A stretch of 64,000 bases of DNA from Squalus acanthias (taxonomy: Eukaryota). The stretch spans positions 75,640,001 to 75,704,000 of the forward strand of contig CM059439.1 of the NCBI GenBank assembly GCA_030390025.1, written 5' to 3'. The notes under the pieces were generated by a model that was not told where the DNA came from, did not search any database, and saw only the letters and a program-made list of their open reading frames with translations. Below, piece after piece: positions 7,093 through 53,207 of the stretch (within the stretch, counting starts at the first letter, position 1; each line of letters begins with the position of its first letter). The position numbers and the translations under genes are program-made.

Positions 7093-7214
7093 CTTCATTG
7101 ATCCCTTTTATCCCACCTTTGTGTTGACTGCAATAGAGTACCCTTAAAGGATTATGATGTTGCATTGAAATTGTTCCTTCCAAATGGACATGGTGAGCTG
7201 AACTAACCAACATC

Positions 7215-8342
7215 ATGACTACTACTTATGAAGAATATATTGCTCCTCAGGGAACACTGGTGAAACCTTACTACTGGTTGTGTTTCACGGAAAGCTGTCC
7301 AAAATGCCCGTATCACATCAAAACTGGGGAAGAAGCACGCGTTTCCTACATCGAATTTTATGAAACTTTTGGGTTTCCCTATGCTCAGCCACAGTCTGGC
7401 AGGCATCTGGTCTTCTATGAACTAAAACTATCATCTGGTAATTTAGTGCAGAAAGGACAAGTAACTAACTGTACTTCATACCACCTTCATCCAGAATCCA
7501 TGTTCTTTGATATAGATGGCTATCTGGATACACTCATGTACTCCTATGAAAACATTGCTTATATTACCATCTACTCCAATTACACCCCATGTAATGAAAG
7601 AGTCCACTACTGCATAAACAAAATTTATGATTTCCTGGTAAATTATCCCAGCACTAGGTTGGATATTTATTTCTCTGCACTCTATCATATTGACGATTAC
7701 TTTTCTGAATCTGGATGGAATAGAGAAGCTCTCCACAACTTGGCAGCACTTTGGCCGAGGGTAACCCTCAATCCCATTAGTAGTGGGACGTGGCTAACTA
7801 TTCTGCACAGGTTTGTGAACGGTGTGCCTCGGACAACACTTTACAACCCAATTTCGCCTGAAAGAGCTTTTGCGGACCTGAGCAATGCCCATCAGATAGT
7901 TGCCATCACCGGAGTTAACCCTTCTTACACAGACGTCGCACCCCATGTAGAGGTCGCACCCCGAGTAAAACAACAACATCAAAAGCAACATTTTAAACCA
8001 GCACATGTGAACTTGTATCCCTTTGCACAAGCACCACTGCCAGTTACGAATAGAATGGCATTAATGGCTCCACACCAACCATACATGAATCTTCCAAACA
8101 TGTTGGCATTGCCATCGTCTATGTACCCATTTCAACCACAGAACATTAAACCGAAGAATGTTGTGAGACACCTGAACATGCCCGACCCGTCCAAATGGAA
8201 AACACCAGCAACCCCATCACCACGCAATGTGCAAATAACTGAATTGGTCGAAATTTTTGAAGTTCCTGTAAAGAAAAGACCAAACAATTCAAAGCAACAG
8301 AGGAAGTCAGGGAAAAAGGGAAAATCTAAAAGAAGGGATTAG
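7215..8342 (+). CDS. APOBEC4: APOBEC4, putative zinc-dependent cytidine deaminase family member (375 aa, single coding exon)
   Basis: Translation matches the vertebrate APOBEC4 pattern throughout: YEEY..GTLVKPYYW, CxxCPYHIKTGEEARVS, HPE zinc ligand, PC-x6-C (TPCNERVHYC), WNREAL..LA.LWPRV, KP.NVVRHLNMP and a Lys-rich C-terminus. There is an in-frame upstream stop (TGA 7194) and an A at -3 of the ATG. Confidence 0.96.
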   Translation: MTTTYEEYIAPQGTLVKPYYWLCFTESCPKCPYHIKTGEEARVSYIEFYETFGFPYAQPQSGRHLVFYELKLSSGNLVQKGQVTNCTSYHLHPESMFFDIDGYLDTLMYSYENIAYITIYSNYTPCNERVHYCINKIYDFLVNYPSTRLDIYFSALYHIDDYFSESGWNREALHNLAALWPRVTLNPISSGTWLTILHRFVNGVPRTTLYNPISPERAFADLSNAHQIVAITGVNPSYTDVAPHVEVAPRVKQQHQKQHFKPAHVNLYPFAQAPLPVTNRMALMAPHQPYMNLPNMLALPSSMYPFQPQNIKPKNVVRHLNMPDPSKWKTPATPSPRNVQITELVEIFEVPVKKRPNNSKQQRKSGKKGKSKRRD

Positions 8343-9141
8343 CTGACAAAAACAGCTCTTTTAAACTGGTAGGAATCTCTGAACCAAAGTAAGACCCCAT
8401 TTAGACAGCACTAAGGATCACTATTTGGCTTAATATATTCCACCATCATAAACTTTGCATAGGAAATACAATAGGAATAAGCCATTCAGCCCATCAACCC
8501 TATTCAATCATTTTGGTTAGCCATGGCAGCTTCAATTTTTAATCCCAGTTCCTTCCCTTTTCGCCCCATCCCATAATACCCTCATTTCCCAAACATTGGT
8601 CTCCAGAACAGATGAACTCATTTTGCACCCGTGGTCTGTCTCCGGGTGCAGTGCATTCCACATTCTGAAGAAGTTTTTCCTGGAATCATTTTTGATGAAC
8701 TTTGCTTGAATTTCCATGAGTATCTCCCCTTGTTTCTGGATTCTCATACCAGAAACAACAGTTATTCCTCCCCATCTCTCCATTAAACCAAATCACTCCT
8801 TAACCTCCTTATCTCCAGGAAATACAATCCAAATCTGTCCAATCCTAATTTAGTCTTCACCCTGATCCCAAGTATCATGCAGGTGAATTGTCTTTCTCGG
8901 AGGCCAGTATATTCTTCGGGTGAGGTGTCCAAAACTGAACACAATATTCCAGGTCTTACAAATACTCTAAAACTGCAGTAGCACTTACTTGTTTTTATAT
9001 TCTATAACCTATTTATGTTGAGTCTATCATCCCATTAGCCTTTTTGATCAATTTTGCACTCCCAAGCTAGCTTATAATGAAATAAAAACAGAAAATGCTG
9101 GAAATACTCCAGGTCAGGCAGCATCTGTGGAGAGAGAAACA

Positions 9142-9180
9142 GAGTTAACGTTTCAGCTCGGTGACCTTTCATCAGAACTC
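9142..9180 (-). ncRNA. Minimal type-I hammerhead ribozyme motif
   Basis: Minus strand reads GAGTT CTGATGA A AGGTC-ACC-GAGCT GAAA CG TT AACTC: stem I GAGTT/AACTC, conserved core, palindromic AACGTT stem III, one mismatch in stem II. Confidence 0.7.
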
Positions 9181-9189
9181 AAAACACCA

Positions 9190-9225
9190 TTCTGACGAAA
9201 GGTCATCGACCTGAAACGTTAACTC
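9190..9225 (+). ncRNA. Minimal hammerhead ribozyme motif with truncated stem I
   Basis: TT CTGACGA A AGGTC-ATC-GACCT GAAA CGTT AACTC; only 2 bp of stem I remain in cis. Confidence 0.55.
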
Positions 9226-11299
9226 TGTTTCTCTCTCCACAGATGCTGCCTGACCTGCTGAGTATTTCCAGCATTTTCTGTTTTTATTTCAGATTTCCAG
9301 CATCTGCAGTATTTTGCTTTTGTACTAGCTTATAACATACCTTGACCCTCAAATCCTTTCCTAACCTACCATCCCAGCACTTCATTTTTATTATACTCCC
9401 ACCTGCCATTCTTGCATATGTGTACCACCTCACACCACATTAAACTGTCTCGGCCATCATTCTGCCCACTTGTTTAGTCTTTAAATGCTCTTTTGCAATT
9501 TTTACTCTTCACAATTCATTATACCGACTAGTCAAGTATCATGAGGTGAGCACTGATCTCTGAGGGACACCACTTGCCCTCCAAGAATGCTCTTTATCCC
9601 AGCTTACTACCTTCTAACTCAGCCTCATGTCATGGGTAGGAAATTGGTCATCACCAATGCCACAGGTTTTAGTTTCAGCTCGCAATCTCTTGGGTGGAAC
9701 CACATCAAATCAGTTCTGAACATCCATGTACATGACATCCATTGATCATCTGTCCACCACCTCAGTGGCTGTTGAGGACCTCTATTAGGTTAGTTAGACA
9801 AGCCCTACTTTTCCTAAAACCATGCCACCTCTCCCTAATCAGCTTATACCTATCCATGCACTTACTTGCGGTCTCTGATGATGGATTCTAGTAATTTCTC
9901 CACTACTGACAAACTCACTGGCCTACAGTAGATTGGGTTGTCCCTCCTCTTGATTAAAAGGTTTAAAATTTCATATCTTCCAATCCTCTGGTCTGATGCA
10001 CAAATCCAGCAACCTTTGGAAGACTGTTAATAAATCACCAAGTATTTTGCTTTTTTAAAGTTGTGATTCAGAATTCATTTTAATATATTCACCAAAAGCC
10101 GATGTCAGCACAACTTGGTTCAAAAGGCCCGACAGTATGAGGGAGAGGAGTTGAAATGGGGGAAAAAAGTCAACGTTGTGCCTGGGTAACTGACCATCTC
10201 CATTGATGTTAATTCACATTCTCCAGTGTCAGGCTTGGCAATTTGCCAATCTATGGTTTAGTTTGGAAAAGGAAGAATTGACAATGTATATCCAGAAAGT
10301 CTATACGGCAGGTGTTGGGACAATTTCAGAAACTTGTCATTTAGTGCAAATAAAACAATGAAAGGCAAGACCCACCTTATGTAAAACAAGATTTCATCGC
10401 ATCTCAAGAGGAGAAAGTTCATAGGAAACAGTTTTAAAATCCCAATTATTACATTTTGTTTCCTTAAGTTTCAAATCGGGGATAGACAGTCACAATTTCA
10501 AACAAGATTAAAAGAGAAGTTGCCAGCCAACTTATTTCAAAAGCTGTAATCCCACCTGAAGCATGTTTTGATTGAAATATTGCCAGTATTAATCAGATTA
10601 GACTTTGATTGTGAAAGTCAATTTAATGAGTGTTACAGGTTAATAAAATCAAAAGTTAATCTTCTTTCATTGTAACAAGTGCAGTTTAATTTTGTTATTT
10701 AAGTTTTCAAGCTGTGGGAAATATATGTAGTCTTAAAAAATAAATGGGAAGGCAAAAGAAATTTAAAAAAAGACCCTGTAACCAATGCTGCAAATTTTCT
10801 TTTGTACTTTAAATAGAGTCAGAGCAAAATGCAATGCAGATTCCAGATACATACAAGATGGAGGAGGGGTTACAAAACAGAATAAAATGTAAAATAAGAA
10901 AAGTACAACTCCATTTAAAAAACTGTTTTATACTTCTGCTAGCTTAGACTACAACCCAGCCTCACACCATAGTTTTGTTTTAAAATGTCATATGATGCTT
11001 GGCCAAAAAAAGTCCACAAACATTAAAATTGCTAAACTCACATTGTACCAACACTTAGTCATCCATCAACCAAACCACCCAGAGCATCAATGATCAATTA
11101 TATAAAGTCATCTGAATCATTGGGGTGATATGCAACACAATTACTCATCCATTATTTTATACATCGTTGCTGGGTATCGCCTGTTGGTATAGAAATCAAT
11201 TGGCTACAACCAACAGTGTGAGGTCATAAATACACATTTAAAAACAAAAAATAAAAATATTCCTGACTGGATATGGAATGCCGCAAATAAAATGTCACA

Positions 11300-12021: not shown

Positions 12022-12415
12022 AATGACTGGATGTGTACAGTTTGGGTCTCCTTACCCAAGGAAGGATATACTTGCCATAGAGGGAGTGCAACAAAGGTTC
12101 ACCAGACTGATTCCTGGGATGGGAGGATTGTCCTATGAGGAGAGATTGAGTAGACTAGGCCTATATTCTCGAGTTTAGAAAAATGAGGGGTGATCTCATT
12201 AAAACATACAAAATTCTTACAGGGCTTGACAGGGTAGATGCAGGGAGGATGTTTCCCCTGGCTGGGGAGTCTAGAACCAGGGGTCACAGTCTCAGAATAA
12301 GCGGTCGGCCTTTTAGGACTGAGATGAGAAATTTCTTCACGCAGGGGTGGTGAACCTTTGAAATTCTCTACCCCAGAGGGCTGTGAAGGCTCAGTCGTTG
12401 AGTATATTCAAGACA

Positions 12416-12598
12416 TGATGCGGAGATGCCGGTGTTGGACTGGGGTGGACAAAAGTGAGAAGTCGCACAACACCAGGTTATAGTCCAACAGCTTTATTTG
12501 AAATCACAAGCTTTCGGAGCGGCTGCTCCTTCGTCAGGTGAAGTGAAGATTTAAATAAAACTGTTGGACTATAACCTGGTGTTGTGCGACTTCTCATT
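12416..12598 (-). mobile_element. Non-autonomous Penelope-like insertion (family B) with hammerhead motif and short inverted arm
   Basis: Same sequence as the ends of 46813-47700. Inverted arm at 12553-12596. TSD TATATTCAAGACA at 12403-12415 and 12599-12611. Confidence 0.85.
12504..12542 (-). ncRNA. Minimal type-I hammerhead ribozyme motif
   Basis: Minus strand reads TTCAC CTGACGA A GGAGC-AGCC-GCTCC GAAA GC TT GTGA. Confidence 0.72.
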
Positions 12599-14294
12599 TA
12601 TATTCAAGACAGAAATTGATAGATTTTTGGATATTAAGGGAATCAAGGGATAGGGGATAGTGCAGGAAAGTGGAGATGAGGTAGATGATCAGCCATGATC
12701 TTATTGAATGGCTGAGCAGGCTCGAAGGGCCTACTCCTGCTCCTATTTCTTATGTTATCAGACTTTGCTGATTATTTAACTGTTATACCATGGTTTCATT
12801 TGAGTCCATCTGCTTATAAGATAATTCAGGTATAATATATGCATTTTAGTTTCCAGATCCTAAGTATTTGCATGCAAGCACATTCCTCTGTACATGTGAT
12901 TTATGGGCGACAATGCTAACACTCACTCTTGAAGCTCACGTCAATAACAGTTGCTCGGCGAGAGGTACCAGCTGGCACTCATGGAGCTGTGCCCAAGCAA
13001 GGAAGTTAGAGGAGGAGGGCAGGGTGGGGGGAAGAGAAAGTAGAAAAGTGGCAAGAAATAAAAGATTAATTTGCAGATGTCCAGTCCTTGGTTGATTAAA
13101 CTTCTGTCTTCTCTACACACGCCTCCCTTTGTTAGTAAAAGGGACGTCTTTAAAAATGTCATTGGTGCTTGGTGGAAATGCCTTGCACCACCTCAAAGAA
13201 TACTAGCGAGACATCATCGACAGTGTGTGTTTAGTCTCTAAAAATACCTCAAGATTCAGCTTCAAAAATGTTATTGATAAAACATAATGACAGAATGATA
13301 TTTAAAACAAAAAACTTTATTGCATCCAGTTTATCTTTGCTTAAGCAAATAAAACAAATGAGTCAGTGTTCCATCCCCAGCCTATCACAACACTTGATTT
13401 CCTTTGATTTCTGGAGGCATTGTTAGGTTTTGTTTATACCATACGCTTATTGTCAGTTTACAGCTGTGACACAACAAATCCTCCAAGTGTAAATATTATA
13501 ATGTTCTTCAGCCAAGAGGCCCCAGCAAATGGACTTGATTTGCACTGTGGAGTTAGAGACATTGTATCCATGATAACCTTGTACTGCTTTTGTTTTGTAA
13601 ATAGAAATTCAGTGCCGTGTGGAGCTGGTTGCTACCCAATGAGGGGAGGGATATGAACCAAGGATGAATCAAACTCATCACCTGTTATATCCCTTCCAGC
13701 AACTGGTTGCAATTGGCAGAGCAGCTTGCCTTTGTGCAAGTGGCATGGTGGATCCAAATTTAAAATATTTTGGAGAACAGTATCACGTGTGCCATGAATG
13801 GAATTGAAGCCCAGATAAAAGTTGCTTGATTACATTGATCTGAATTGAATGTGATTTTTGTGCAAACATGGGTATCTATCCCTTGTTAAAATAAAAATCA
13901 ACCCGTCAGATGGGACACACCTTCCTACATACGCGATTATGGCCTCTGTACAAGGAGTATAATTTGCTTGGGGGAAGGGGAGAGGAGCTCTGTAAACAAA
14001 TACACGCACCACAATACCCCACACCAACAGAAAAATGTAACCCCATTATACACGGTTTACAATTACAGTTTGAAGTGCAAGGGACTTAATATTGACATTA
14101 AATTGCTGGCAAGATTTTTTTTTTGGTTTTGCAGAATTTTAAAATGGCGCATGAATGCAAGAAGTTGAATTGAATGCTAATCATAGAATCATACTGCACA
14201 GAAGGAGGCCATTTACCCCATCATGTCTGCTCTTTGAGGGAGCTATCCAATTAGTCCCACTCCCCTACTCTTTCCACAGAGCCCTGCAAATGTT

Positions 14295-33084: not shown

Positions 33085-33098
33085 TGGTGACCCCGACG
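33085..33098 (+). promoter_or_regulatory. Primer-binding site complementary to tRNA-Trp
   Basis: TGGTGACCCCGACG is the reverse complement of the vertebrate tRNA-Trp 3' end (CGTCGGGGTCACCA). Confidence 0.85.
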
Positions 33099-33123
33099 CT
33101 CAGAACGTATTCCGAGCACTGCA

Positions 33124-33714
33124 ATGGCGGACACGAACGCAGTTTCCGTGAAACTGCCGGAGTTTTGGGAAAACCAGCCCGAAGCCTGGTTTCTCCAAAC
33201 TGAATCCCGCTTCCGGCTGCGAAACATCACCACAGATGGGACGCAGTACGACTACCTCGTCACATCACTCGGTAGCGCCACAGTTTCGAAGGTTTGGACA
33301 GCGCTGCAGAACCCACCAGAGGAAGGCAAGTATGCACATCTCAAGGCAGCGCTCCTTAAAAAATGTACGGCCTCGGCATATCAGCGAAACTGCCACCTCC
33401 TCGACCTTCCAGGCCTCGGTGATGCCTCACCGTCAGACCTCCTCTCCCACATGCTCTCCCTCACCGACGAGAGCCCACGCGGATCCCTCTTCCGCACGCT
33501 ATTCATCCGCCAGCTCCCGCTCAGCATCCGCCCAGCGATCGTGGCCTCCGGCCTCACGAACCTGGAAGCCCTGGCCGATGAGGCCGACATGCTGCTGTCC
33601 GCTCACTCCAGCCGCGACGTCACTCCAGAGCTGGCAGCCAATGCCTGGGCGCGCCCCTCACCGGCCACCACAAGGACCAGCCACCAGGCCCAAGGGGCCT
33701 TCGCGCCCCACTAA
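33124..33714 (+). pseudogene. gag: Gypsy gag (frameshifted before its C-terminal zinc finger)
   Basis: VKLPEFW..QPEAWF.Q.E..F N-terminus typical of this Gypsy group. The CYYH-x9-C-x3-C knuckle follows in another frame (~33724-33780). Confidence 0.85.
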
Positions 33715-36700
33715 CCCGGGCCACTGTTACTACCACGCACGGTTCAGCGCCAGGGCACAACGGTGCACACCTCCCTGCTCTTTCAAGTCCGCCCCCGTAC
33801 CAGCCCCCGCGATGGCCGTGGGCCACGCGGGCTCCCTGCTGTACGTCACGGATGACAAAACCGGCCGCCGGTTCCTGTGCGACACTGGGGCTCAGCACAG
33901 CATCATCCCGGCCTCCTCCCTCGACATCCAAAAGGGCGAACGAGGACCGGCGCTGGCTGCTGCTAACGGCTCGGAAATCTGGACGTATGGCACCCAGACA
34001 GTCACCATCGACCTCGCTGGTCACCGCTACCGATGGGAGTTCATCACTGCCAAGGTGCTCTCCCCTCTCATTGGCGCAGATTTCCTGCGCCCCCACGGCC
34101 TACTGGTAGACATTCCTAGTCACCGCCTCGTGGACATGAACACCATGTCCCCCATCCTGGGCGCCATGGCCCCCCGTCAACATGGCGTCACAGTGCCACG
34201 CCCGGGCCACAGATGACTACTCGGCACTCCTGGCCGAATTCCCGGCCCTTACCAATCCGACCTTCTCCGCGGAGGCCGCCAAACACGGGGTGGAACACTT
34301 CATCCCCACCACAGGCCCCCCCAGTGTACGCCCACGCCCGCAGGCTGGACCCGGCCAAACTGGAGATCGCGCGGACCGAGTTTGCCACCATGGAACAGCT
34401 CGGCATCATCCGCCGCTCCAACAGTCCCTGGGCCTCCCCACTCCACATCACCCCCAAACCAGGCGGAGGTTGGCACCCCTGCGGGGATTACCGCCGCCTC
34501 AACGACGCCACCACCCCTGATCGGTACCCCGTGCTGCACATTCAGGACTTCTCGGCTAGACTGGCCGGCCGCTCAGTCTTTTCCAAGGTCGACCTGGTGT
34601 GCGGATACCACCAAGTCCCCGTCCACCCCGCGGACGTCCCCAAGACGGCCGTAATCACCCCCTTCGGCCTGTTCGAGTTCCTGCGGATGCCCTTCGGCCT
34701 CAAAAACGCGGCCCAGGCATTCCAACGGCTCATGGACTCGGTCCTTCGAGACCTGAAGTTCCTGTTCGTCTACCTGGACAACATCCTGGTAGCCAGTTCC
34801 TCCAAGCAGGAACACCTCGAACACCTTTGCATCCTGTTCGGGCGCCTCAGCGACCACGGGCTCATCCTCAGCCCAGCCAAATGCCAGTTCAGCCTGGACA
34901 AGATCGACTTCCTCGGCCACCACATCACCCATGCTGGGGCCATTCCCCTGCCCACCAAGGTGCAGGACGTCCAACAATTTCCCCGCCCCATCACCAAAGG
35001 CCTCCAGGAGTTCCTCGGGATGGTGAATTTCTATAACCGCTTCATCCCCAAAGCAGCGTCCCTCATGAGGCCCCTGTATGAAACCCTCCGGGGCAGGAGC
35101 GGCAAGATGGCAGTCGAATGGACGGCAGACGCGTCCGCCGCCTTCGACTCCACCAAGACCGCGCTCGCCAACGCCACCCTGCTCGCGCACCCACGGCCCA
35201 ATGCCAGGGTAGCGCTCACCATGGACGCCTCCGACCACGCGGTCGGTGCCGTGTATGAGCAGTGGGTCGACGGCTCCTGGCAACCACTTGCCTTCTTCAG
35301 CCGCCAACTACGCCCCCCGGAGGTCAAGTACAGCACCTTCGACCGCGAGCTCCTCACGCTGTTCCTGGCGGTCTGCCATTTTCGGTTTTTGCTTGAGGGC
35401 CACCCCTTCACTGCGTTTGTCGACCACAAGCCTCTGACATTCGCAATGGCAAAGACAACCGACCCCTGGTCCGCCAGGCAGCAGCGCCAGCTCGCGGCAG
35501 TGTCAGAGTTCACCACAGACATCCAACACGTCTCCGGCCGAGACAATGTGGTAGCCGACTGCCTCTCCCGCCCCGCCATCCACGCCGCACACCTGGCAGT
35601 CGACTACGCTCAACTGGCAGCAGACCAGATCACCGACCCTGATCTGCTCTCCGCACCTACCAACCTACTAGGGCTACGCCTGGCCGACGTCGCCTGTGGC
35701 CCGACCGCAGTCACGGTCAAGTGCGACATATCCCTCTCTCAACCTCGGCCAGTCGTCCTGGCGCCGCCGGGTATTCGACATTCTCCACAACCTCTCCCAC
35801 CCCGGCGCATCCATCAAATTGGTAGCCAACCGCTTTGTCTGGCGCGGCCTTCGCAAGGATGTGCGTACTTGGGCCAACTCCTGCCTAGCCTGCCAACGGG
35901 CCAAGGTACAGCAACACACGAAAGCACCCCTCGAGGAGTTTACCATCCCCTCGCGGAGATTCGACCACATCCACGTGGACATCGTCGGGCCCCTGCCGCA
36001 AGGCGACACGCACTTGCTGACGATCGTTGACCGCACCACGCGCTGGCCCGAGGCAATTCCACTGACCTCTACCACCACCGCCGACATCGCCAGAGCCTTC
36101 GTCAGCACCTGGGTCGCACGGTTCGGCGTCCCCTCCGACATGCCGTCGGACAGAGGTCCGCAATTTACCTCTGAACTCTGGACCGCTATCGCACGCAATC
36201 CCGGGGTGACCATTCACCGCACCACAGCGTACCACCCCCAAGCCAACGGACTGTGTGAGCGGTTCCACAGATCCTTGAAGGCATCTCTTCGAGCCAGCCT
36301 CCAGGACGGCGCCTGGACCGACCGACTTCCGTGGGTCCTCCTCGGCCTGTGCACCGCGGTTAAAGAAGACCTCCACGCATAGGCAGCAGAGCTCGTGTAC
36401 GGTCAGCCACTGCGCGTACCCGGCGAGTTCCTGCCCACCGCCACGACACCCTGGTCAGCCGACCAGCAACGCCACGACTTCGCCTCACCGGCGCTGCAGT
36501 TCGCCCCGGTGCCCATTGCCCGACACGGCGAATCCACCTCACACATCCCACTAAGCCTGCACCAGGCACGGTTCGTTTTCGTCCGGCACGACGCCCACCG
36601 CGGACCCCTTCAACCCCCGTACGACAGGCCCTACAAGGTGCTACAGGCTGGGGACAAATTTTTCACCCTGCAAGTGGGAGACAGGACCGAAAAAGTGTCA

Positions 36701-36898
36701 GTTGACCGACTCAAGCCAGCACACTCGGAGCCCGGTGAGCAGGTCCTTGTAACTCGTCCACCACCACGCGGCCGACCTGCCCTCAAGCCGGTTCACCCAG
36801 CGGCTCCACACCCAGCCGTTCCACGTCCACCGGCATCCTACAAGAGCCGCTCTTGCCGGCCCATCAGACCGCCGCACCGTCTCGTCCACACCTCCTAA
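33715..36898 (+). pseudogene. pol: Gypsy pol (protease, RT, RNase H, integrase) with frameshifts and an internal stop
   Basis: Protease FLCDTGA; RT DYRRLN, MPFGLKNA, YLDN (YxDD mutated); RNase H DAS..DRELL; integrase H-H-CxxC and D-D-E. Frame changes occur near 34180, 34320 and 35755, with an in-frame TAG at 36380. Confidence 0.92.
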
Positions 36899-36918
36899 GC
36901 GGATTCTGGGGGGAGCTG

Positions 36919-46558: not shown

Positions 46559-46638
46559 CCCCTGGAAAGTCAAGTTCACACATGTGGGATGTAGGAACCC
46601 CTGGAAAGTCAAGTTCACACATCTGGGATGTAGGAACC
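46559..46638 (+). repeat. 39-bp tandem duplication
   Basis: CCCCTGGAAAGTCAAGTTCACACAT(G/C)TGGGATGTAGGAA x2, one mismatch. Confidence 0.9.
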
Positions 46639-46865
46639 ATAGTAGAGGTTGGTGGAACCAAGAAATATTTGGTTGAACTTGGTGACAACTTCCGAAGTGT
46701 TCATATAGATCAAATGATCTCTGCTATGAAAATAAGTTTTTGTGACTGGAAGGCGGTTTCCAGTGGGGTTCCGCAGGGCTCAGTACTCGGTCCCTTGCTT
46801 TTTGTGGTATATAAAAGTGAGAAGTCGCACAACACCAGGTTATAGTCCAACAGTTTTATTTGAAA

Positions 46866-46904
46866 TCACAAGCTTTCGGAGCGGTTGCTCCTTCGTCAGG
46901 TGAA
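46866..46904 (-). ncRNA. Minimal type-I hammerhead ribozyme motif
   Basis: Minus strand reads TTCAC CTGACGA A GGAGC-AACC-GCTCC GAAA GC TT GTGA. Confidence 0.72.
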
Positions 46905-47575
46905 GTAAAGGAATACAAATCGACAAAGCATATATCGATAGAGAACAATGCATGTGTAACGGACAATGGCAGACGACTACATTTAATCCTCCTGACTGCC
47001 TTTTGTCACACCTCGGCAGAGAAACAATCAGGTCAGCCAGGAAGGCACCACATCAAAGACATAGCAAGATACAACTGAGACAATGAGGTGGGGTTAGAGG
47101 GGGTCTAATGTGTCAAAAGCTGCAGTCGGTATGGAAAACGATAAACTTTAAAATTTTTACTTATTTTTACTGGAAATCACATCTGAACAAGCCAACGACG
47201 ACTCGAGTCTGGATGACTCTACGTCATGTATCATGACATGAACCCAAGATACATGACGTAGAGTCATCCAGACTCGAGTCGTCGTTGGCTTGTTCAGATG
47301 TGATTTCCAGTAAAAATAAGTAAAAATTTTAAAGTTTATCGTTTTCCATACCGACTGCAGCTTTTGACACATTAGACCCCCTGCAAGCCCACCTCATTGT
47401 CTCAGTTGTATCTTGCTATGTCTTTGATGTGGTGCCTTCCTGGCTGACCTGATTGCCTTTTGTCACACCTCGGCAGATAAACAGTCAGGAGGATTAAATG
47501 TTGTCGTCTGCCATTGTACGCTACACATGCATTGTTCTCTATCTATATATGCTTTGTCGATTTGTATTCCTTTAC

Positions 47576-47614
47576 TTCACCTGACGAAGGAGCAGCCGCT
47601 CCGAAAGCTTGTGA
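47576..47614 (+). ncRNA. Minimal type-I hammerhead ribozyme motif
   Basis: TTCAC CTGACGA A GGAGC-AGCC-GCTCC GAAA GC TT GTGA. Stem I TCAC/GTGA, palindromic AAGCTT stem III, predicted cut after 47610. TATA-like CTATATAT lies ~30 nt upstream. Confidence 0.72.
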
Positions 47615-50473
47615 TTTCAAATAAAACTGTTGGACTATAACCTGGTGTTGTGCGACTTCTCACTTTTGTCCACCCCAGTCCAACACCGTCATCTCCGCAT
47701 TTTGTGGTATATATCAATGATCTTGACTTGAATATATGGGGTATGATTAAGAAGTTTGCAGATGATACTAAAATCGGCTGTGTGGTTGATACTGAAGAAG
47801 GAAGCTGTAGACTGCAGGATATCAAATCAATAAATTGGTCAGGTGGGCAGAACAGTGGCAAATGGAATTCAATCTGGAGAAGTGTGAGGTAATGCATTTG
47901 GGGAGGGCTAACAAGGAAAGGGAATACATATTAAATGGTAGGACACTGAGCAGCGTAGAGGAACAAAGGGACCTTGGAGTGCATGTCCACAGATCCCTGA
48001 AGGGAGCAGGCCAAGTAGATAAGGTGGTTAAGAAGGCATACGGAATGCTTGCCTTTATTAGCCATGGCATAGAATACAAGAGCAGGGAGGTTATGCTTCA
48101 ACTGTATAAAACACTAGTTAGGCCTCAGCTAGAGTACTGCGTGCAGTTCTGGTCACCACATTACAGGAAAGATGTGATTGCTCGAGAGGATACAGAGGAG
48201 ATTTACAAGGATGTTGCTGGGAGTAGAGAATCTTAGCTATGAGGAAAGACTGGATAGGCTGGGTCTGTTTTCCATGGAACAGAGGAGACCTTATTGAGGT
48301 GTATAAAATTATGAGGGGCACAGATAAAGTGGATAGAAAGGACCTATTTCCCTTAGCAGAGGGGTCAAAAACCAGGGGGCACAGATTTAAAGTAATTGGT
48401 GGAAGGTTTAGAGGGGATTTGAGGGGAAATTTCTTCACCCAGAGGGTTGTGGAGGTCTAGAACTCACTGCCTGAAAGGGTGGTAGAGGCAGGAACCCTAA
48501 CCACATTTAAAAAGTACTTGGATGTACACTTGGGATGCTCTAACCTGCAGGGCTACAGACCAAGAGCTGGGTAGTGGGATTAGGCTGGATAGCTCTTTGT
48601 TGGCCGGCGCAGACACGATGGGCTGAAATGGCCTCCTTCCGTGCTGTAACTTCTATGATTCTATGATGAACCAAGACGTGATCTTGAACCACTTGATCAC
48701 AAACTCATACATGAGTTTGACTCAGTTCAGACTTCAGTAACTGAAGTACCAGGTTCAAACAAGTCTCAGATAGAAACAGGATCAGAGTTTGGAACCAAAA
48801 TACAACAGCCTGAAAATTGGTTCAACACCAAAACCTTCTTTAAAAGATCAGGAAGGCTCTGCAAACCGGTTATTAAAATGGATTTGTAGTTCATTTAAAT
48901 GAAAAAATGCCAGGAGTTTTTGTTGTGTGGTACATATAATGCTGGGAAATGTGGGACCATAGTTTTGTTGTATTTGAGGGGAATACATACTTTTTTTTTA
49001 AAAAAGAGGAAAGCAGTGTAATATATTATCACATGGTATGTCACATGGTTTAATATGAGCATGCTCAGTTTGCTCTGGCCCAGTAAAGCAACTCATCCTG
49101 TCTCTGTCCTTCATTTGTTCTATCCACATATATTACAATGGGAAACACTCAAAGTACTAATTAATTTCAAAAGCTAGCAACAACACTATACCAGAGTTCC
49201 TTTACCAAGTTTGTTCCAAGAATAACCTGTTTTCTTAGATATGACATAGCAAGAACCACAAATATTCACGGTCCTTCAAGAGCTGAAATCAAAGACTCTT
49301 TCTCACGTCTTGCATCTTTGAGAAACAGTGTGCATTGTTTTATGAAAATAAATTTTTAAGAGCACTTATTTACAATAGGTAGCTTGAAATATAATGTTTT
49401 AGTAGCTCAGGAAGATTCACTGTAGAATATAGGCCTGAGCCACAAAGATAAGGAAAGTCGCAGGTTTGATCCTGGCCCATGCGAAGTTAGCCTCAAGCTA
49501 GAAAGTGATGGAGAGAATAAAATAAGTGAAGGGTACCCACTCCTGATCAATACCCAGTGACCTCCCCCCTTACCCTCTTAGCAAGTGTGCTTGTGTGAAC
49601 ATGGTCAGTCTTGGCAGTGATCCTTCCCGTGTGTCTCCACCAGCCCTCCACATTGAATAGCCACACACCATCTAGACTGGCACGTGACAAAATGGCCACT
49701 TAGGCAGGGGAACCAGAGGTCGACAGGTGCCCATGCAACCATCCCCCCAGCATGAATTGATGTGAGCAGAGGGCAGCAGAGAAGAGGTTGGGAAAATAAG
49801 TGAAATTTTTTAAGTGCACTTGATGCTTGTCCAGCTACACTTGCTCTGACTACAAAGACTCGCAAGTGCGTGCCTTGGGAGATCGTAGAGATCATAAATA
49901 TTGCAACCGCAAAAAATAATCTCGTCTGAGTAGCTGTAAAACTTTAATAGTGTTGGAAAATGTCATAGACTGTGCCAGTTGGAGTAGTCTGCTGCATTTT
50001 ACTTTGGTTCCATGAGTGTAATACATTAAATAATTGTTATTGAAGATGCAACATTACAGGAAGTCAGCTCACATTAACAAGCAACAATGACCCACTAGTT
50101 TAAAAAGCAAGGGTAGAATTTTATCATAGTCATCAGTGCTACTGAACTTCCAAGTTTGTACGCACCAACGAAAGCATTTAATCCACACTGTACCTCAGGC
50201 AGTATAAATACCATTGGACTATTGGAATCTCAATTAGTGTCCACATACGGTATAGTTATGTGCCACTGCCTAGTTTAGTGCTGGGGAAAAACTGTATAAA
50301 GCAAGGGGCAAGTCTGAGGCCAATCTTTGTATGTGTCCCAACATGCGTTAGCCGTGGCTCACTTGTAGCAATCTCACCCGAGTCAGAAGGTTGCTGATTC
50401 AAGCCCCACTCCAGAGACTTGAAGATAAAATCTAGGCTAACACTCCAGTACAGTACCGAGGGAGTGCTGAATT

Positions 50474-52630
50474 AGATACATAGATACATAGAAGATAGGA
50501 GCAGGAGTAGGCCATCCGGCCCTTCGAGCCTGCTCCGCCATTTAATGAGATCATGGCTGATCCTTCAATTCAGTATCCCGTCCCCGCCTTCTCTCCGTAA
50601 CCCTTAACCCCTTTTGCCTGTAGAAATATATCTAATTCCCTCTTAAATATATTTAATGAGCTGGCGTACACTGCCCTCTGTGGCAATGAGTTCCACAGGT
50701 TCACCACTCTCTGAGTGAAGAAATTCCCCCTCATTTCTGTCCTAAATGGTTTAGCCCTTATCCTTAAATTATGTCCTCTAGTTCTGTTCTCACCCGCCAA
50801 GGGAAACATTCCTTCTGCATCTAATCTGTCTAGACCTGTCAGAATTTTATACACTTCTATGAGGTCCCCTCTCAATCTTCTAAACTCCAGTGTGTACATC
50901 CCTAAACTACATAGTCTCTCCTCATAGGTCAATCCCGCCATTCCTGGTATCAGCCTGGTGAATCGCCGCTGCACCCCCTCCATGGCAAGAACATCTTTCC
51001 TCAGATGAGGCGACCAAAACTGTACACAGTACTCGAGGTGTGGTCTCACCAGTGCCCTGTACAGCTGCAGCAAGGTATCCCTGTTCCTGTATTCCAACCC
51101 TTTTGCTATGAAGGCCAGCATACCGTTTGCCTTCTTGACCGCCTGTTGCACCTGCATGCTCGCCTTCAGTGACTGGTGTACAAGAACACCCAGGTCTCTC
51201 TGTACTTCCCCCTCTCCCAATTTATTGCCATTTAAATAATAATTTGCCCTCCCGTTCCTGCACCCAAGGTGGATAACTTCGCACTTGTCCACATTATAGT
51301 GCATCTGCCATTTATCCGCCCAATCACCCAGTCTGTCCAAATCGCTCTGGAGCTTCCTGGTCTCCTCCTCTGAGCCCACCCCCCCTCCTAGTTTAGTGTC
51401 GTCTGCAAATTTGGAAATGCTGCATTCGACTCCCTGATCCAGGTCATTAATATAAATTGTGAACAGCTGGGGACCCAGGACAGATCCCTGTGGTACCCCA
51501 CTTGTTACTGCCTGCCATTCAGAAAATGAGCCGTTTATTCCAACTCTCTGTTTTCTATCTGACAGCCAGTTCTCTATCCACGTCAATACTTTCCCCTTTA
51601 TCCCATGAGCTTCAATTTTCCATGCTAATCTTTTATGTGGGACCTTATCGAAGGCCTTTTGGAAGTCCAGGTACACCACATCTACTGGCTCTCCCCCATC
51701 TATTTTACCAGTTACTCCCTCAAAAAATTCCAATAGATTAGTCAAGCACGATTTACCCTTTGTAAATCCATGTTGACTCTGTCCTATCCTGTCCCCATTT
51801 GCTAAGTGCTCGGCTATTTCATCCTTAATGATGGACTCCAGCATTTTGCCCACAACTGATGTAAGGCTTACAGGTCTGTAATTACCTGCTTTTTCCCTAC
51901 CCCCCTTTTTGAATAGTGGGGTAACGTTAGCTACCCTCCAATCCATGGGCACTGTTCCCGAGTCTAATGAATTCTGAAAAATCATGCTTAGTGCATCCGC
52001 TATCTCTAGGGCCACCTCCTTCAGTACCCTAGGATGCATGTTATCAGGCCCTGGGGATTTGTCCGCCTTCAATCCCTTTAGCTTCCTTAACACCATATCC
52101 TTAGAGATATTGATTTGCGTCAGTTCCTCCTTTGCCAATGTCCCTATTTTTCCCGATATCCCAGGGAGGTTTTTTGTGTCTTCCTTCGTAAAGACTGACC
52201 CAAAGTATGCATTTAGTTGGTCTGCCATTTCCTTATTTCCCATTATATATTCCCCCGTATCTGACTGCAATGGACCAACTTTGGTTTTCACCAGTCTTTT
52301 CCTCTTGATATACTTATAAAAGCTTTTGGAGTTAGTTTTTATATTTTCCGCCAGCTTGCTTTCGTAAGCTATTTTGCCCTTCTTGATTAAGCCCTTTGCC
52401 CTCCTTTGCTCTATCTTAAACTGTTCCCAATCTTCCGCTCTGGCGCGTTTTTTGGCTATTTTATACGCCCTATCTTTGGATTTTATGCTGTCTCTAATTT
52501 CCCCTGTTATCCACGGTTGAGTCACCTTTTTAGATTTCCTTTTATGCCAGATTGGTATAAACAATTTTTGCAATTTTGTCATTCTATCTTTAAATGCTTG
52601 CCATTGTTTATCTACCTCCAGTCCTCCCAG
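50474..52630 (-). mobile_element. Young 5'-truncated CR1 LINE
   Basis: Uninterrupted ORF2 frame, 3' UTR and an octamer tail (TATGTATC)n. Confidence 0.95.
50570..52582 (-). CDS. CR1 ORF2 reverse transcriptase (partial, lacks the endonuclease)
   Basis: NYRPVSLTS, QHGF, YLDFQKAFDKVPH, GVPQGSVLGP, FADD, VRPHLEYCVQFWSP. The frame stays open to the truncation point, so the Met is internal. Confidence 0.9.
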   Translation of the reverse strand: MTKLQKLFIPIWHKRKSKKVTQPWITGEIRDSIKSKDRAYKIAKKRARAEDWEQFKIEQRRAKGLIKKGKIAYESKLAENIKTNSKSFYKYIKRKRLVKTKVGPLQSDTGEYIMGNKEMADQLNAYFGSVFTKEDTKNLPGISGKIGTLAKEELTQINISKDMVLRKLKGLKADKSPGPDNMHPRVLKEVALEIADALSMIFQNSLDSGTVPMDWRVANVTPLFKKGGREKAGNYRPVSLTSVVGKMLESIIKDEIAEHLANGDRIGQSQHGFTKGKSCLTNLLEFFEGVTGKIDGGEPVDVVYLDFQKAFDKVPHKRLAWKIEAHGIKGKVLTWIENWLSDRKQRVGINGSFSEWQAVTSGVPQGSVLGPQLFTIYINDLDQGVECSISKFADDTKLGGGVGSEEETRKLQSDLDRLGDWADKWQMHYNVDKCEVIHLGCRNGRANYYLNGNKLGEGEVQRDLGVLVHQSLKASMQVQQAVKKANGMLAFIAKGLEYRNRDTLLQLYRALVRPHLEYCVQFWSPHLRKDVLAMEGVQRRFTRLIPGMAGLTYEERLCSLGMYTLEFRRLRGDLIEVYKILTGLDRLDAEGMFPLAGENRTRGHNLRIRAKPFRTEMRGNFFTQRVVNLWNSLPQRAVYASSLNIFKRELDIFLQAKGVKGYGEKAGTGY

Positions 52631-53207
52631 AATTGTCAGAGGTGCTGTCTTTCAGATGAGATGATAAACCGAGGCTGTGTGCCCTCTCAGATGGATGTAA
52701 AAGATCCCATGGCACTATTCAAAGAAGAGCAGGGGAGTTCTCCCCAGTGTCCTGGCTAATACTTATTCCTCAAACAACACCACTAAAACAGATTATCTGG
52801 TCATTATCACATTGCAGTTTGTGGGAGCTTGCTGTTGCAATTGGCTGCTGCGTTTCCTATATTACAACAGTAATGCTGGCTGTGAAGCACTTTGGTATGG
52901 TCGGAGGTACTCTATAAATGCAAGTCTTTTTCTCTAGCAGAAAAGTCATTTGACAATTAAAAAAAAAATTCAATGACCATATTAATGATGCAAAATCAAG
53001 CAGCAGTTTTGTACATTAATGCTGGTAGCATCAATGACTCAAATTAATTTTTATATCCTTGGCCCCTTCATCACCACTGTACAGTGGAATCTCAATTTAC
53101 ACCATAATCCTCAGCTCCAGATGGTCTCCTAGGAGTAAAGCTGAAAATATCTGCCAAATGGATAGTAAATTCTCCAAGATACTGGACAACCAACGATTAC
53201 TTACCTC

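What the first reader, a model, noticed from the sequence alone, without database searches (positions are those of the whole stretch)
46801..47713. 855-bp fold-back element with hammerhead ribozyme motifs of both polarities
Seen: two 420-bp inverted arms around a 15-nt loop, with the inner ~130 bp perfectly complementary. There is an intact minimal hammerhead in each arm, a TATA-like box ~30 nt before each, a 33-nt unpaired tail, a 13-bp TSD, and no recognisable ORF. Known: Penelope-like elements (PLEs) carry minimal hammerheads in their pseudo-LTRs and often insert with inverted ends. Inference: a transcript from either strand would be a long rod-like dsRNA carrying one ribozyme. It could be a self-standing non-autonomous ribozyme retroelement (retrozyme/viroid-like architecture) and an endo-siRNA source, rather than a one-off truncation product.
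Basis: partly seen in the sequence, partly recalled or inferred. Interest (0 to 1): 0.75.

Follow-up and report, generated by a model that had tools for sequence, protein, structure and literature searches.

The report
Truncated Penelope retroelement fold-back insertion
The hairpin is real but ordinary: two shortened ends of a very common jumping gene, likely a Penelope-like element, sit back to back at one spot, a layout already described for this group, and the join between them is far too rare for the hairpin to be spreading as a unit.

Summary
The anatomy is confirmed: 420-bp arms, a 15-nt loop, a 32-33-nt tail on one arm, a 13-14-bp TSD inside a CR1-type LINE, and one minimal hammerhead motif per strand. 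In contigs of two samples, the loop bin has summed depth 171 and 190, against at least 110,000 in every arm bin (not a copy number). Other copies run on past the fold point, so the loop is 15 extra bases of the left arm, joined at a 3-nt microhomology. A same-family copy at 12.4 kb folds elsewhere and has its own TSD. A second family does the same at 9.1 kb. In a read-through RNA the hammerhead is predicted to be buried in the duplex. Opposite-strand minimal hammerheads 100-700 bp apart, and inverted pLTR plus tail plus TSD, are in print (PMC4209133, PMC3846280, PMC8557442). This scan also noted such fold-backs before, in this and other genomes. One lead remains: the arms may come from two different RNA templates. 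The parent RT/GIY-YIG gene was not recovered; cleavage and expression are untested.

The parts
46800..46813 (+). Left target-site duplication (14 bp), within a CR1-type LINE RT fragment
   Evidence: Identical to 47700-47713. The flanks read ...GVPQGSVLGPLLFVVY on the left and FVVYINDL... on the right, matching the window's long RT frame GVPQGSVLGPQLFTIYINDL. Other copies join the left-flank sequence directly to the TSD (loose ends before 47700).
46813..47250 (-). Left arm: tail-less, 5'-truncated copy of the element's 3' end, including the 15-nt 'loop' and the 3-nt junction microhomology
   Evidence: Family loose ends before 47250 match the reverse complement of the loop (12 contigs in X1).
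46866..46903 (-). Minimal type I hammerhead motif of the left arm (one change in loop II)
   Evidence: cleavage untested
46999..47024 (.). 26-nt micro-inversion between the arms, bounded by an 8-bp imperfect inverted repeat; leaves a large internal loop in the hairpin
   Evidence: Same orientation as 47456-47481, 25 of 26 identical
47233..47247 (.). 15-nt loop = extra element sequence of the left arm; rare junction
   Evidence: tables 2 and 7
47248..47667 (+). Right arm: 5'-truncated copy of the element's 3' end (likely 3' UTR plus pseudo-LTR)
   Evidence: Depth rises towards the 3' end.
47253..47284 (+). Decayed hammerhead-like motif (5-bp stem kept, four core positions changed), mirrored in the left arm
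   Evidence: Relaxed scan, (mean 0.47 such sites in 60 shuffles, so weak alone). Local depth spike and loose ends behind 47295 resembling the 9.1-kb family.
47544..47549 (+). TATA-like hexamer, intact in the right arm only; function untested
47577..47614 (+). Minimal type I hammerhead motif: stem I 47577-80/47611-14, core 47581-87, extra A 47588, stem II 47589-93/47598-602, GAAA 47603-06, palindromic G-C 47607-08, predicted cut after 47610
   Evidence: descriptor features from PMC4209133
47668..47699 (+). Unpaired 32-nt tail (33 with the shared T), on one arm only
   Evidence: the same tail is on the 12.4-kb copy
47700..47713 (+). Right target-site duplication
12403..12611 (-). Same-family fold-back with a different fold point (12548): 131-nt tailed arm, 53-nt tail-less arm, one hammerhead, own 13-bp TSD
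9067..9335 (+). Fold-back of a second hammerhead-bearing family: about 100-nt arms, 12-nt loop, 33-nt tail, 11-bp TSD, cores on both strands (left stem II mismatched)

Best explanation
This is a single, likely dead-on-arrival insertion: two 5'-truncated copies of the 3' end of a very abundant element, likely Penelope-like, joined head to head between a 13-14-bp target duplication, with a join that is far rarer than the arms. Inferred mechanism: the element's protein (supplied by a full-length copy elsewhere) made staggered nicks 13-14 bp apart. Each nick primed reverse transcription at one of two neighbouring internal start sites, one with the tail and one without. Both cDNAs stopped early, after about 450 and about 435 nt. 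Their 3' ends annealed through 3 complementary bases, and repair filled the gaps. The two hammerheads are passengers: each arm carries the pseudo-LTR motif, so inversion puts one on each strand. Shown: the anatomy, the rare loop, family continuation past the fold point, variable fold points. Inferred: the Penelope identity of the parent, twin priming, and inactivity.
For: Loop bin summed depth 171 (X1) and 190 (X3) vs 110,088-5,930,675 and 112,903-7,835,073 in arm bins; ratios 643-1113 and 594-653 for the adjacent and the lowest arm bin. 12 contigs in X1 continue upstream of 47250 through the loop's reverse complement into non-hairpin sequence. Depth peaks over the last ~110 nt, as expected from 5' truncation. 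The same family folds at another point at 12.4 kb, and one X3 contig joins opposite strands at 47574/47666. All 3 of 3 hammerhead-bearing inserts found in the window are fold-backs with a one-sided tail and an 11-14-bp TSD. The longer arm is the tail-less one at 47 kb and the tailed one at 12.4 kb, which fits two independently truncated cDNAs. In vitro, an anole PLE protein cuts and extends both strands and starts at two sites that bracket the tail (PMC11167929). The architecture is described in PMC3846280, PMC8557442 and PMC4209133.
Against: No whole genome was held, so copies could not be counted. Summed contig depth over-counts fragmented repeats, and the tool says it is no copy number; a handful of loop copies is not excluded. 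The loop bin lies at the edge of the stretch laid, and no listed contig spans the whole stretch. The parent RT/GIY-YIG frame was not recovered; that the loop holds the last codons of the ORF rests on a recalled motif, and my checks for it were blank. Only one opposite-strand joint was listed, and 445 loose ends were not shown. The perfect inner 135 bp (p about 0.02-0.10 if 6-10 events were spread evenly) suggests copying or conversion between the arms, which plain twin priming does not predict. The published explanation of head-to-head junctions is different: self-priming on an antisense template (PMC3846280).
Confidence: 0.9

Rival explanations
1. The 855-bp hairpin is a self-standing non-autonomous ribozyme retroelement (retrozyme or viroid-like) that moves as a unit.
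For: Intact motifs on both strands, clean TSD, very stable rod fold. pLTR sequence alone can be mobilised in trans (PMC3846280 passage), and animal retrozymes are argued to derive from pLTRs (bioRxiv 2026.07.22.740005).
Against: The loop is about 600-1100 times shallower than nearby arm bins. Fold points vary. There is one motif per strand and no direct tandem repeat, whereas non-LTR retrozymes are tandem arrays. Stem I and II pairing probability is 0.0 in the full + strand transcript, vs stem II 0.94-1.0 in the right arm alone. On either strand the sense motif lies in the second arm, behind its own antisense.
Confidence: 0.03
2. Same ordinary insertion, but the inversion arose by snap-back or self-priming: one cDNA, or an antisense RNA, folded on itself and copied its own arm.
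For: Proposed for head-to-head palindromic junctions in rotifer PLEs (PMC3846280). The inner 135 bp are perfect. The micro-inversion and a perfected 5-bp quasi-palindrome at 47094-47108 look like template switching.
Against: The loop is in family-sense orientation on the bottom strand, so it cannot come from a snap-back of the tailed arm's cDNA. A snap-back of the tail-less arm could not supply the tail without another template. The longer arm differs between the 47-kb and 12.4-kb copies. The two 12.4-kb arms carry different common family alleles at the site matching 47626.
Confidence: 0.25
3. The locus has been co-opted as a source of long dsRNA (endo-siRNA or an editing substrate).
For: Any read-through RNA would fold into a duplex of about 400 bp. 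Rotifer PLEs yield antisense small RNAs (PMC3846280).
Against: There is no sign of conservation or expression here. It sits in a decayed LINE. No host exon was detected nearby: the 135 frames scanned beyond 37.2 kb gave one RT hit only. Such hairpins are common (3 in 64 kb).
Confidence: 0.07
4. Assembly artefact (a chimeric fold-back read).
For: Long palindromes are prone to misassembly (PMC8557442 passage). No listed contig spans the stretch laid.
Against: The arms differ at 8 sites plus a micro-inversion, only one arm has the tail, and a 14-bp TSD restores a LINE frame. The loop bin has depth in both samples laid.
Confidence: 0.02

Closest known systems
Inverted-pLTR insertion units of endonuclease-positive Penelope-like elements (Pen2a_Av in PMC3846280; Fig. 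2 legend of PMC8557442)
   Same: Head-to-head inverted 5'-truncated copy, 30-40-bp tail on one end only, TSD, TATA-like box in the pLTR, insertion into another retroelement
   Different: No ORF or direct pLTR pair here; both copies are cut back to about 430-450 nt. The TSD is 13-14 bp vs 8-10 bp in the rotifer examples.
Minimal hammerheads (min-HHR) of metazoan PLEs (Cervera and De la Pena 2014, PMC4209133)
   Same: CUGANGA/GAAA core, extra base between 9 and 10.1, G10.1-C11.1 pair, palindromic 15.2-16.2, short helix I. The paper reports dual min-HHRs about 100-700 bp apart on opposite strands (682 bp between core starts here).
   Different: Helix II is 5 bp vs 7-8 bp in Schistosoma. The predicted triplet is CUU. 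This family's motif was not found in the one supplementary hit file searched (file 1 could not be searched).
Poseidon element PAc of Anolis (Frangieh et al. 2024, PMC11167929)
   Same: Tail defined by two internal RT start sites; both strands cut and extended; hammerhead about 100 nt before the 3' end; AT-rich target
   Different: In PAc the ORF starts inside the hammerhead. Here no frame does; loose ends behind 47700 begin CATG, so the start codon may follow the tail (agreement only 0.42-0.44, weak).
Non-LTR retrozymes of animals (PMC7229834; bioRxiv 2026.07.22.740005)
   Same: Non-coding, type I hammerhead, pLTR-related
   Different: Those are direct tandem arrays with same-strand ribozymes that release circles. 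This is an inverted pair with one minimal motif per strand.

Membership tests
EN+ Penelope-like element insertion | Parent ORF with RT and C-terminal GIY-YIG endonuclease | tested here: inconclusive
   No genome held. No PLE protein among 280 window frames scanned. The minus strand reads LGFMS*YMT* across the loop, which resembles PLE C-termini from recall only. Motif searches were blank or chance.
EN+ Penelope-like element insertion | Hammerhead motif near the 3' end (pLTR) | tested here: met
EN+ Penelope-like element insertion | 30-40-bp tail on one end only | tested here: met
   32-33 nt here, the same tail at 12.4 kb, 33 nt at 9.1 kb
EN+ Penelope-like element insertion | 5' truncation with an adjacent inverted truncated copy | tested here: met
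   Depth gradient and upstream loose ends; three fold-backs
EN+ Penelope-like element insertion | Target-site duplication | tested here: met
   14, 13 and 11 bp; empty site seen in other LINE copies
Minimal type I hammerhead | Core boxes, extra base 9/10.1, G10.1-C11.1, palindromic 15.2-16.2 | tested here: met
   Read; stems; features from PMC4209133
Minimal type I hammerhead | Match to a curated covariance model | tested here: not met
   No Rfam hammerhead hit at gathering score or at E up to 10; the 8 weak hits were hairpin-shaped miRNA/sRNA models below threshold
Minimal type I hammerhead | Self-cleavage as a dimer | not testable with these tools
   Needs an in vitro assay. Unconstrained co-folding of two copies paired stem II and flanking bases between the copies rather than clearly giving the active fold.
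Non-LTR retrozyme | Direct tandem repeats with two or more same-strand hammerheads | tested here: not met
Non-LTR retrozyme | Unit amplified as such in the genome | tested here: not met
   Loop bin 171/190 vs at least 110,000; a handful of copies is not excluded
Non-LTR retrozyme | Expressed as circular RNA | not tested
   No RNA run was laid
Viroid-like RNA with hammerheads of both polarities | Ribozyme able to fold in each polarity within a multimer (feature recalled) | tested here: not met
   Stem pairing probability 0.0 in the full + strand RNA; no multimer. The - strand was argued by symmetry, not computed.

The most novel reading that the evidence does not exclude
The two arms of Penelope fold-backs are copied from two different RNA molecules by twin target-primed reverse transcription (an RT dimer, one subunit per nick), not by self-priming. 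Hints: all 8 arm differences fall on the tail-less arm while the tailed arm keeps the family allele (p about 0.008 by site, 0.016-0.03 by cluster). The two arms at 12.4 kb carry different common alleles (G is 22% and 33% of depth). Either arm can be the longer. A genome full of such fold-backs would let arm haplotypes settle how PLE inverted ends form.
Probability: 0.35. Interest if true: 0.45.

Novelty: new member of a known kind. Interest (0 to 1): 0.13.

Why it matters
As a locus it matters little: it is one of very many truncated insertions of a described layout. It is a clean example, with an empty site that can be read from the host LINE, a defined 3-nt junction and sibling copies in the same window. 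How PLE inverted ends form is still open in the papers I read (self-priming proposed in 2013; both-strand extension shown in vitro in 2024), and comparing arm haplotypes across many fold-backs would test that cheaply. Had the hairpin been a mobile unit with working ribozymes of both polarities, it would have linked retroelements to viroid-like RNAs; the evidence here is against that.

Tried and rejected
Raw reads of two other organisms were nearly blank: X21 laid 8 reads, all on the 3' end; X22 laid 0, which is no test. Rfam: no hit at gathering score in the window; the 8 sub-threshold hits over the element reflect hairpin shape and were rejected. A 22-nt family motif found 0 matches in metagenome and in viral contigs. 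A 19-nt motif for the upstream sequence found 3 metagenome loci; none had further similarity to the element or an open frame there, so they were rejected as chance. Search of one supplementary file of PMC8557442 for C-terminal peptide motifs: 0 hits. Pfam scan of 280 of 562 stop-to-stop frames (cut at 58 aa beyond 37.2 kb and 62 aa below 33 kb; 33-37.2 kb and short overlaps of the long RT frame left out): APOBEC4-type and RT hits plus four sub-cutoff hits; no host exon near the element and no PLE protein. Sequence look-up in earlier scan notes: nothing. Paper searches listed no paper holding both 'pLTR' and 'twin priming'. The library lacks most subscription papers, and bioRxiv supplements are closed, so a two-template model may be in print unseen. 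MITE or foldback DNA transposon rejected: one-sided tail, rare centre, variable arm length.
Full report
Observation. The described structure is in the sequence. The arms are 46813-47232 and 47248-47667, 420 nt each, around a 15-nt loop; the inner 135 bp are perfect. The insert folds at -738.9 kcal/mol, z -63. The flanks continue one motif that also stands in the window's 693-aa RT frame, and other LINE copies join left-flank sequence straight to the TSD. The genome looks like a shark or ray; that is my recall plus earlier scan notes, not a tool result.

Hammerheads. Each arm has CUGACGA, one extra A, a 5-bp stem II closed by G-C, GAAA, a palindromic G-C, and a 4-bp stem I. These are the marks of the minimal hammerheads of PLEs in PMC4209133 (parts 1-2 of 4 of the main text read). 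A strict scan finds 4 such sites in 64 kb, against 0.07 on average in 60 shuffles. Rfam has no matching model. The TATA-like hexamer is intact only in the right arm. In a + strand read-through RNA, stems I and II have pairing probability 0.0; in the right arm alone stem II has 0.94-1.0 and stem I about 0.13. Because the arms are head to head, the sense motif on either strand comes after its own antisense. With one motif per strand there are no two cuts to release a monomer or circle.

Does the hairpin move as a unit? No genome was held, so I laid public contigs on 47226-47790: X1 and X3, two samples of organism A, the best holder (X1 may be the source sample). Summed depth in the loop bin was 171 and 190. 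In arm bins it was 110,088-5,930,675 and 112,903-7,835,073, peaking over the last ~110 nt as 5' truncation predicts. The ratios to the adjacent and the lowest arm bin are 1113 and 643 (X1), 653 and 594 (X3). This is not a copy number: fragmented repeats are over-counted, and the bin lies at the edge of the stretch. It still leaves room for only a handful of junction copies. Twelve X1 contigs continue before 47250 through the reverse complement of the loop and then into sequence that is not the opposite arm. The loop is therefore 15 extra bases of the left arm, the family is longer than either arm, and the join uses a 3-nt microhomology at 47248-47250. One X3 contig joins opposite strands at 47574/47666, a different fold point. 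Only one such joint was listed, and 445 loose ends were not shown. Raw reads of two other organisms added almost nothing (8 and 0 reads).

Siblings in the window. At 12403-12611 the same family (97.7% over 131 nt) forms a fold-back with a 131-nt tailed arm, a 53-nt tail-less arm, one hammerhead and its own 13-bp TSD. At 9067-9335 a second family does the same, with about 100-nt arms, a 33-nt tail, an 11-bp TSD and cores on both strands. All 3 of 3 hammerhead-bearing inserts found are fold-backs with different centres. Whether an insert has one or two ribozyme motifs depends only on where each arm was cut short.

Mechanism. The most likely route is twin priming (inferred; about 0.55 among mechanisms). 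Staggered nicks give the TSD. Each nick primes reverse transcription at one of two neighbouring internal starts, which explains a tail on one arm only. Both cDNAs stop early and anneal at a few bases. In vitro, the anole PLE protein cuts and extends both strands, starts at two sites that bracket the tail, is modelled as a dimer, and does not need hammerhead cleavage for insertion (PMC11167929, parts 1-2 of 4 read). A plain snap-back fits poorly: the loop belongs to the tail-less arm here, while at 12.4 kb the tailed arm is the longer. The published alternative is self-priming on an antisense template (PMC3846280, passages). The perfect inner 135 bp (p 0.02-0.10), the micro-inversion and a perfected quasi-palindrome at 47094-47108 point to some copying between arms or template switching, which I cannot place in time.

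Arm asymmetry. At the 8 sites where the arms differ, one search lists no left-arm allele at 2% or more and no majority allele differing from the right arm. All 8 changes therefore map to the tail-less arm (two-sided p 0.008 by site, 0.016-0.03 if clusters count once). The tool warns that no row does not prove identity; for example, a difference from the 12.4-kb copy at 47690, near the end of the element, is not listed. At 12.4 kb the arms carry A and G at the site matching 47626, where G holds 22% (X1) and 33% (X3) of depth. Both fit arms copied from different RNAs, but chance, later mutation or error-prone repair of one arm are not excluded.

Parent element. It was not recovered. The window's minus strand reads LGFMS*YMT* across the loop, which from recall resembles the end of vertebrate PLE ORFs; if so, the arms are 3' UTR plus pseudo-LTR. 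My checks were blank: 0 hits in one supplementary file of PMC8557442, and 3 chance metagenome loci. PLE membership thus rests on hammerhead, tail, inverted truncation and TSD.

What is known. PMC4209133 states that dual minimal hammerheads occur about 100-700 bp apart on opposite strands and relates such motifs to truncated PLEs; its supplement notes an opposite-strand copy at the 5' end of a truncated element (file 2; file 1 could not be searched). PMC3846280 describes inverted pLTR, 31-bp tail, 9-10-bp TSD and a TATA box (passages). PMC8557442 and PMC8969392 describe the adjacent inverted 5'-truncated copy and one-sided tail as typical (passages). Non-LTR retrozymes are direct tandem arrays (PMC7229834 passages; bioRxiv 2026.07.22.740005 part 1 of 5 and passages; its supplements are closed). 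So this works like a PLE truncation product, meets four of five PLE insertion marks with the fifth inconclusive, and fails the two retrozyme marks tested. Earlier notes of this scan reached the same reading for other fold-backs in this and other genomes; they are unchecked, and I do not count them as support.

Verdict. A real, ordinary insertion of a described layout; interest 0.13. The lead worth keeping is the two-template reading of the arms, which a genome-wide haplotype comparison could test. Expression, small RNAs and cleavage were not tested.

Noticed in passing
window 12403-12611: Same-family fold-back with a different fold point, one hammerhead, 13-bp TSD; its two arms carry different common family alleles at one site.
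   Followed up: yes
window 9067-9335: Fold-back of a second hammerhead-bearing family with an 11-bp TSD and a 33-nt tail; the arms differ at 3 sites and a 2-nt indel in about 100 nt, which is a lot for one template.
   Followed up: partly
window 46999-47024 vs 47456-47481; 47094-47108: 26-nt micro-inversion between 8-bp imperfect inverted repeats, and a perfected 5-bp quasi-palindrome in the left arm; both look like template-switch scars.
   Followed up: partly
window 47253-47295 (mirrored at 47185-47227): Decayed hammerhead-like motif at the inner end of both arms. Contigs pile up here and continue into sequence resembling the 9.1-kb family's pseudo-LTR, so the family may be a chimera or carry an old second ribozyme.
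   Followed up: partly
window 47667-47700 (loose ends): Many contigs leave the element at 47667, 47672 and 47700, i.e. at both ends of the tail and at one more site; earlier scan notes report a Tx1 LINE targeting such tails, not checked here.
   Followed up: no
window 7197-8342 (+): 381-aa frame with APOBEC4/NAD1 Pfam hits (E 1.7e-20, 5.9e-25), likely the APOBEC4 gene. From recall it is nested in another gene's intron; no such exons were detected.
   Followed up: no
window about 33090-36900 (+): GC-rich retroelement with gag-, protease-, RT/RNase H- and integrase-like frames broken by frameshifts (read by eye; Gypsy-like label recalled; not scanned).
   Followed up: no
window 50570-52651 (-): 693-aa uninterrupted LINE RT frame (RVT_1, E 8e-32), a young CR1-type copy.
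   Followed up: no
window 46559-46636: 39-nt tandem duplication (97% identical) in the host LINE, 160 nt left of the insertion.
   Followed up: no
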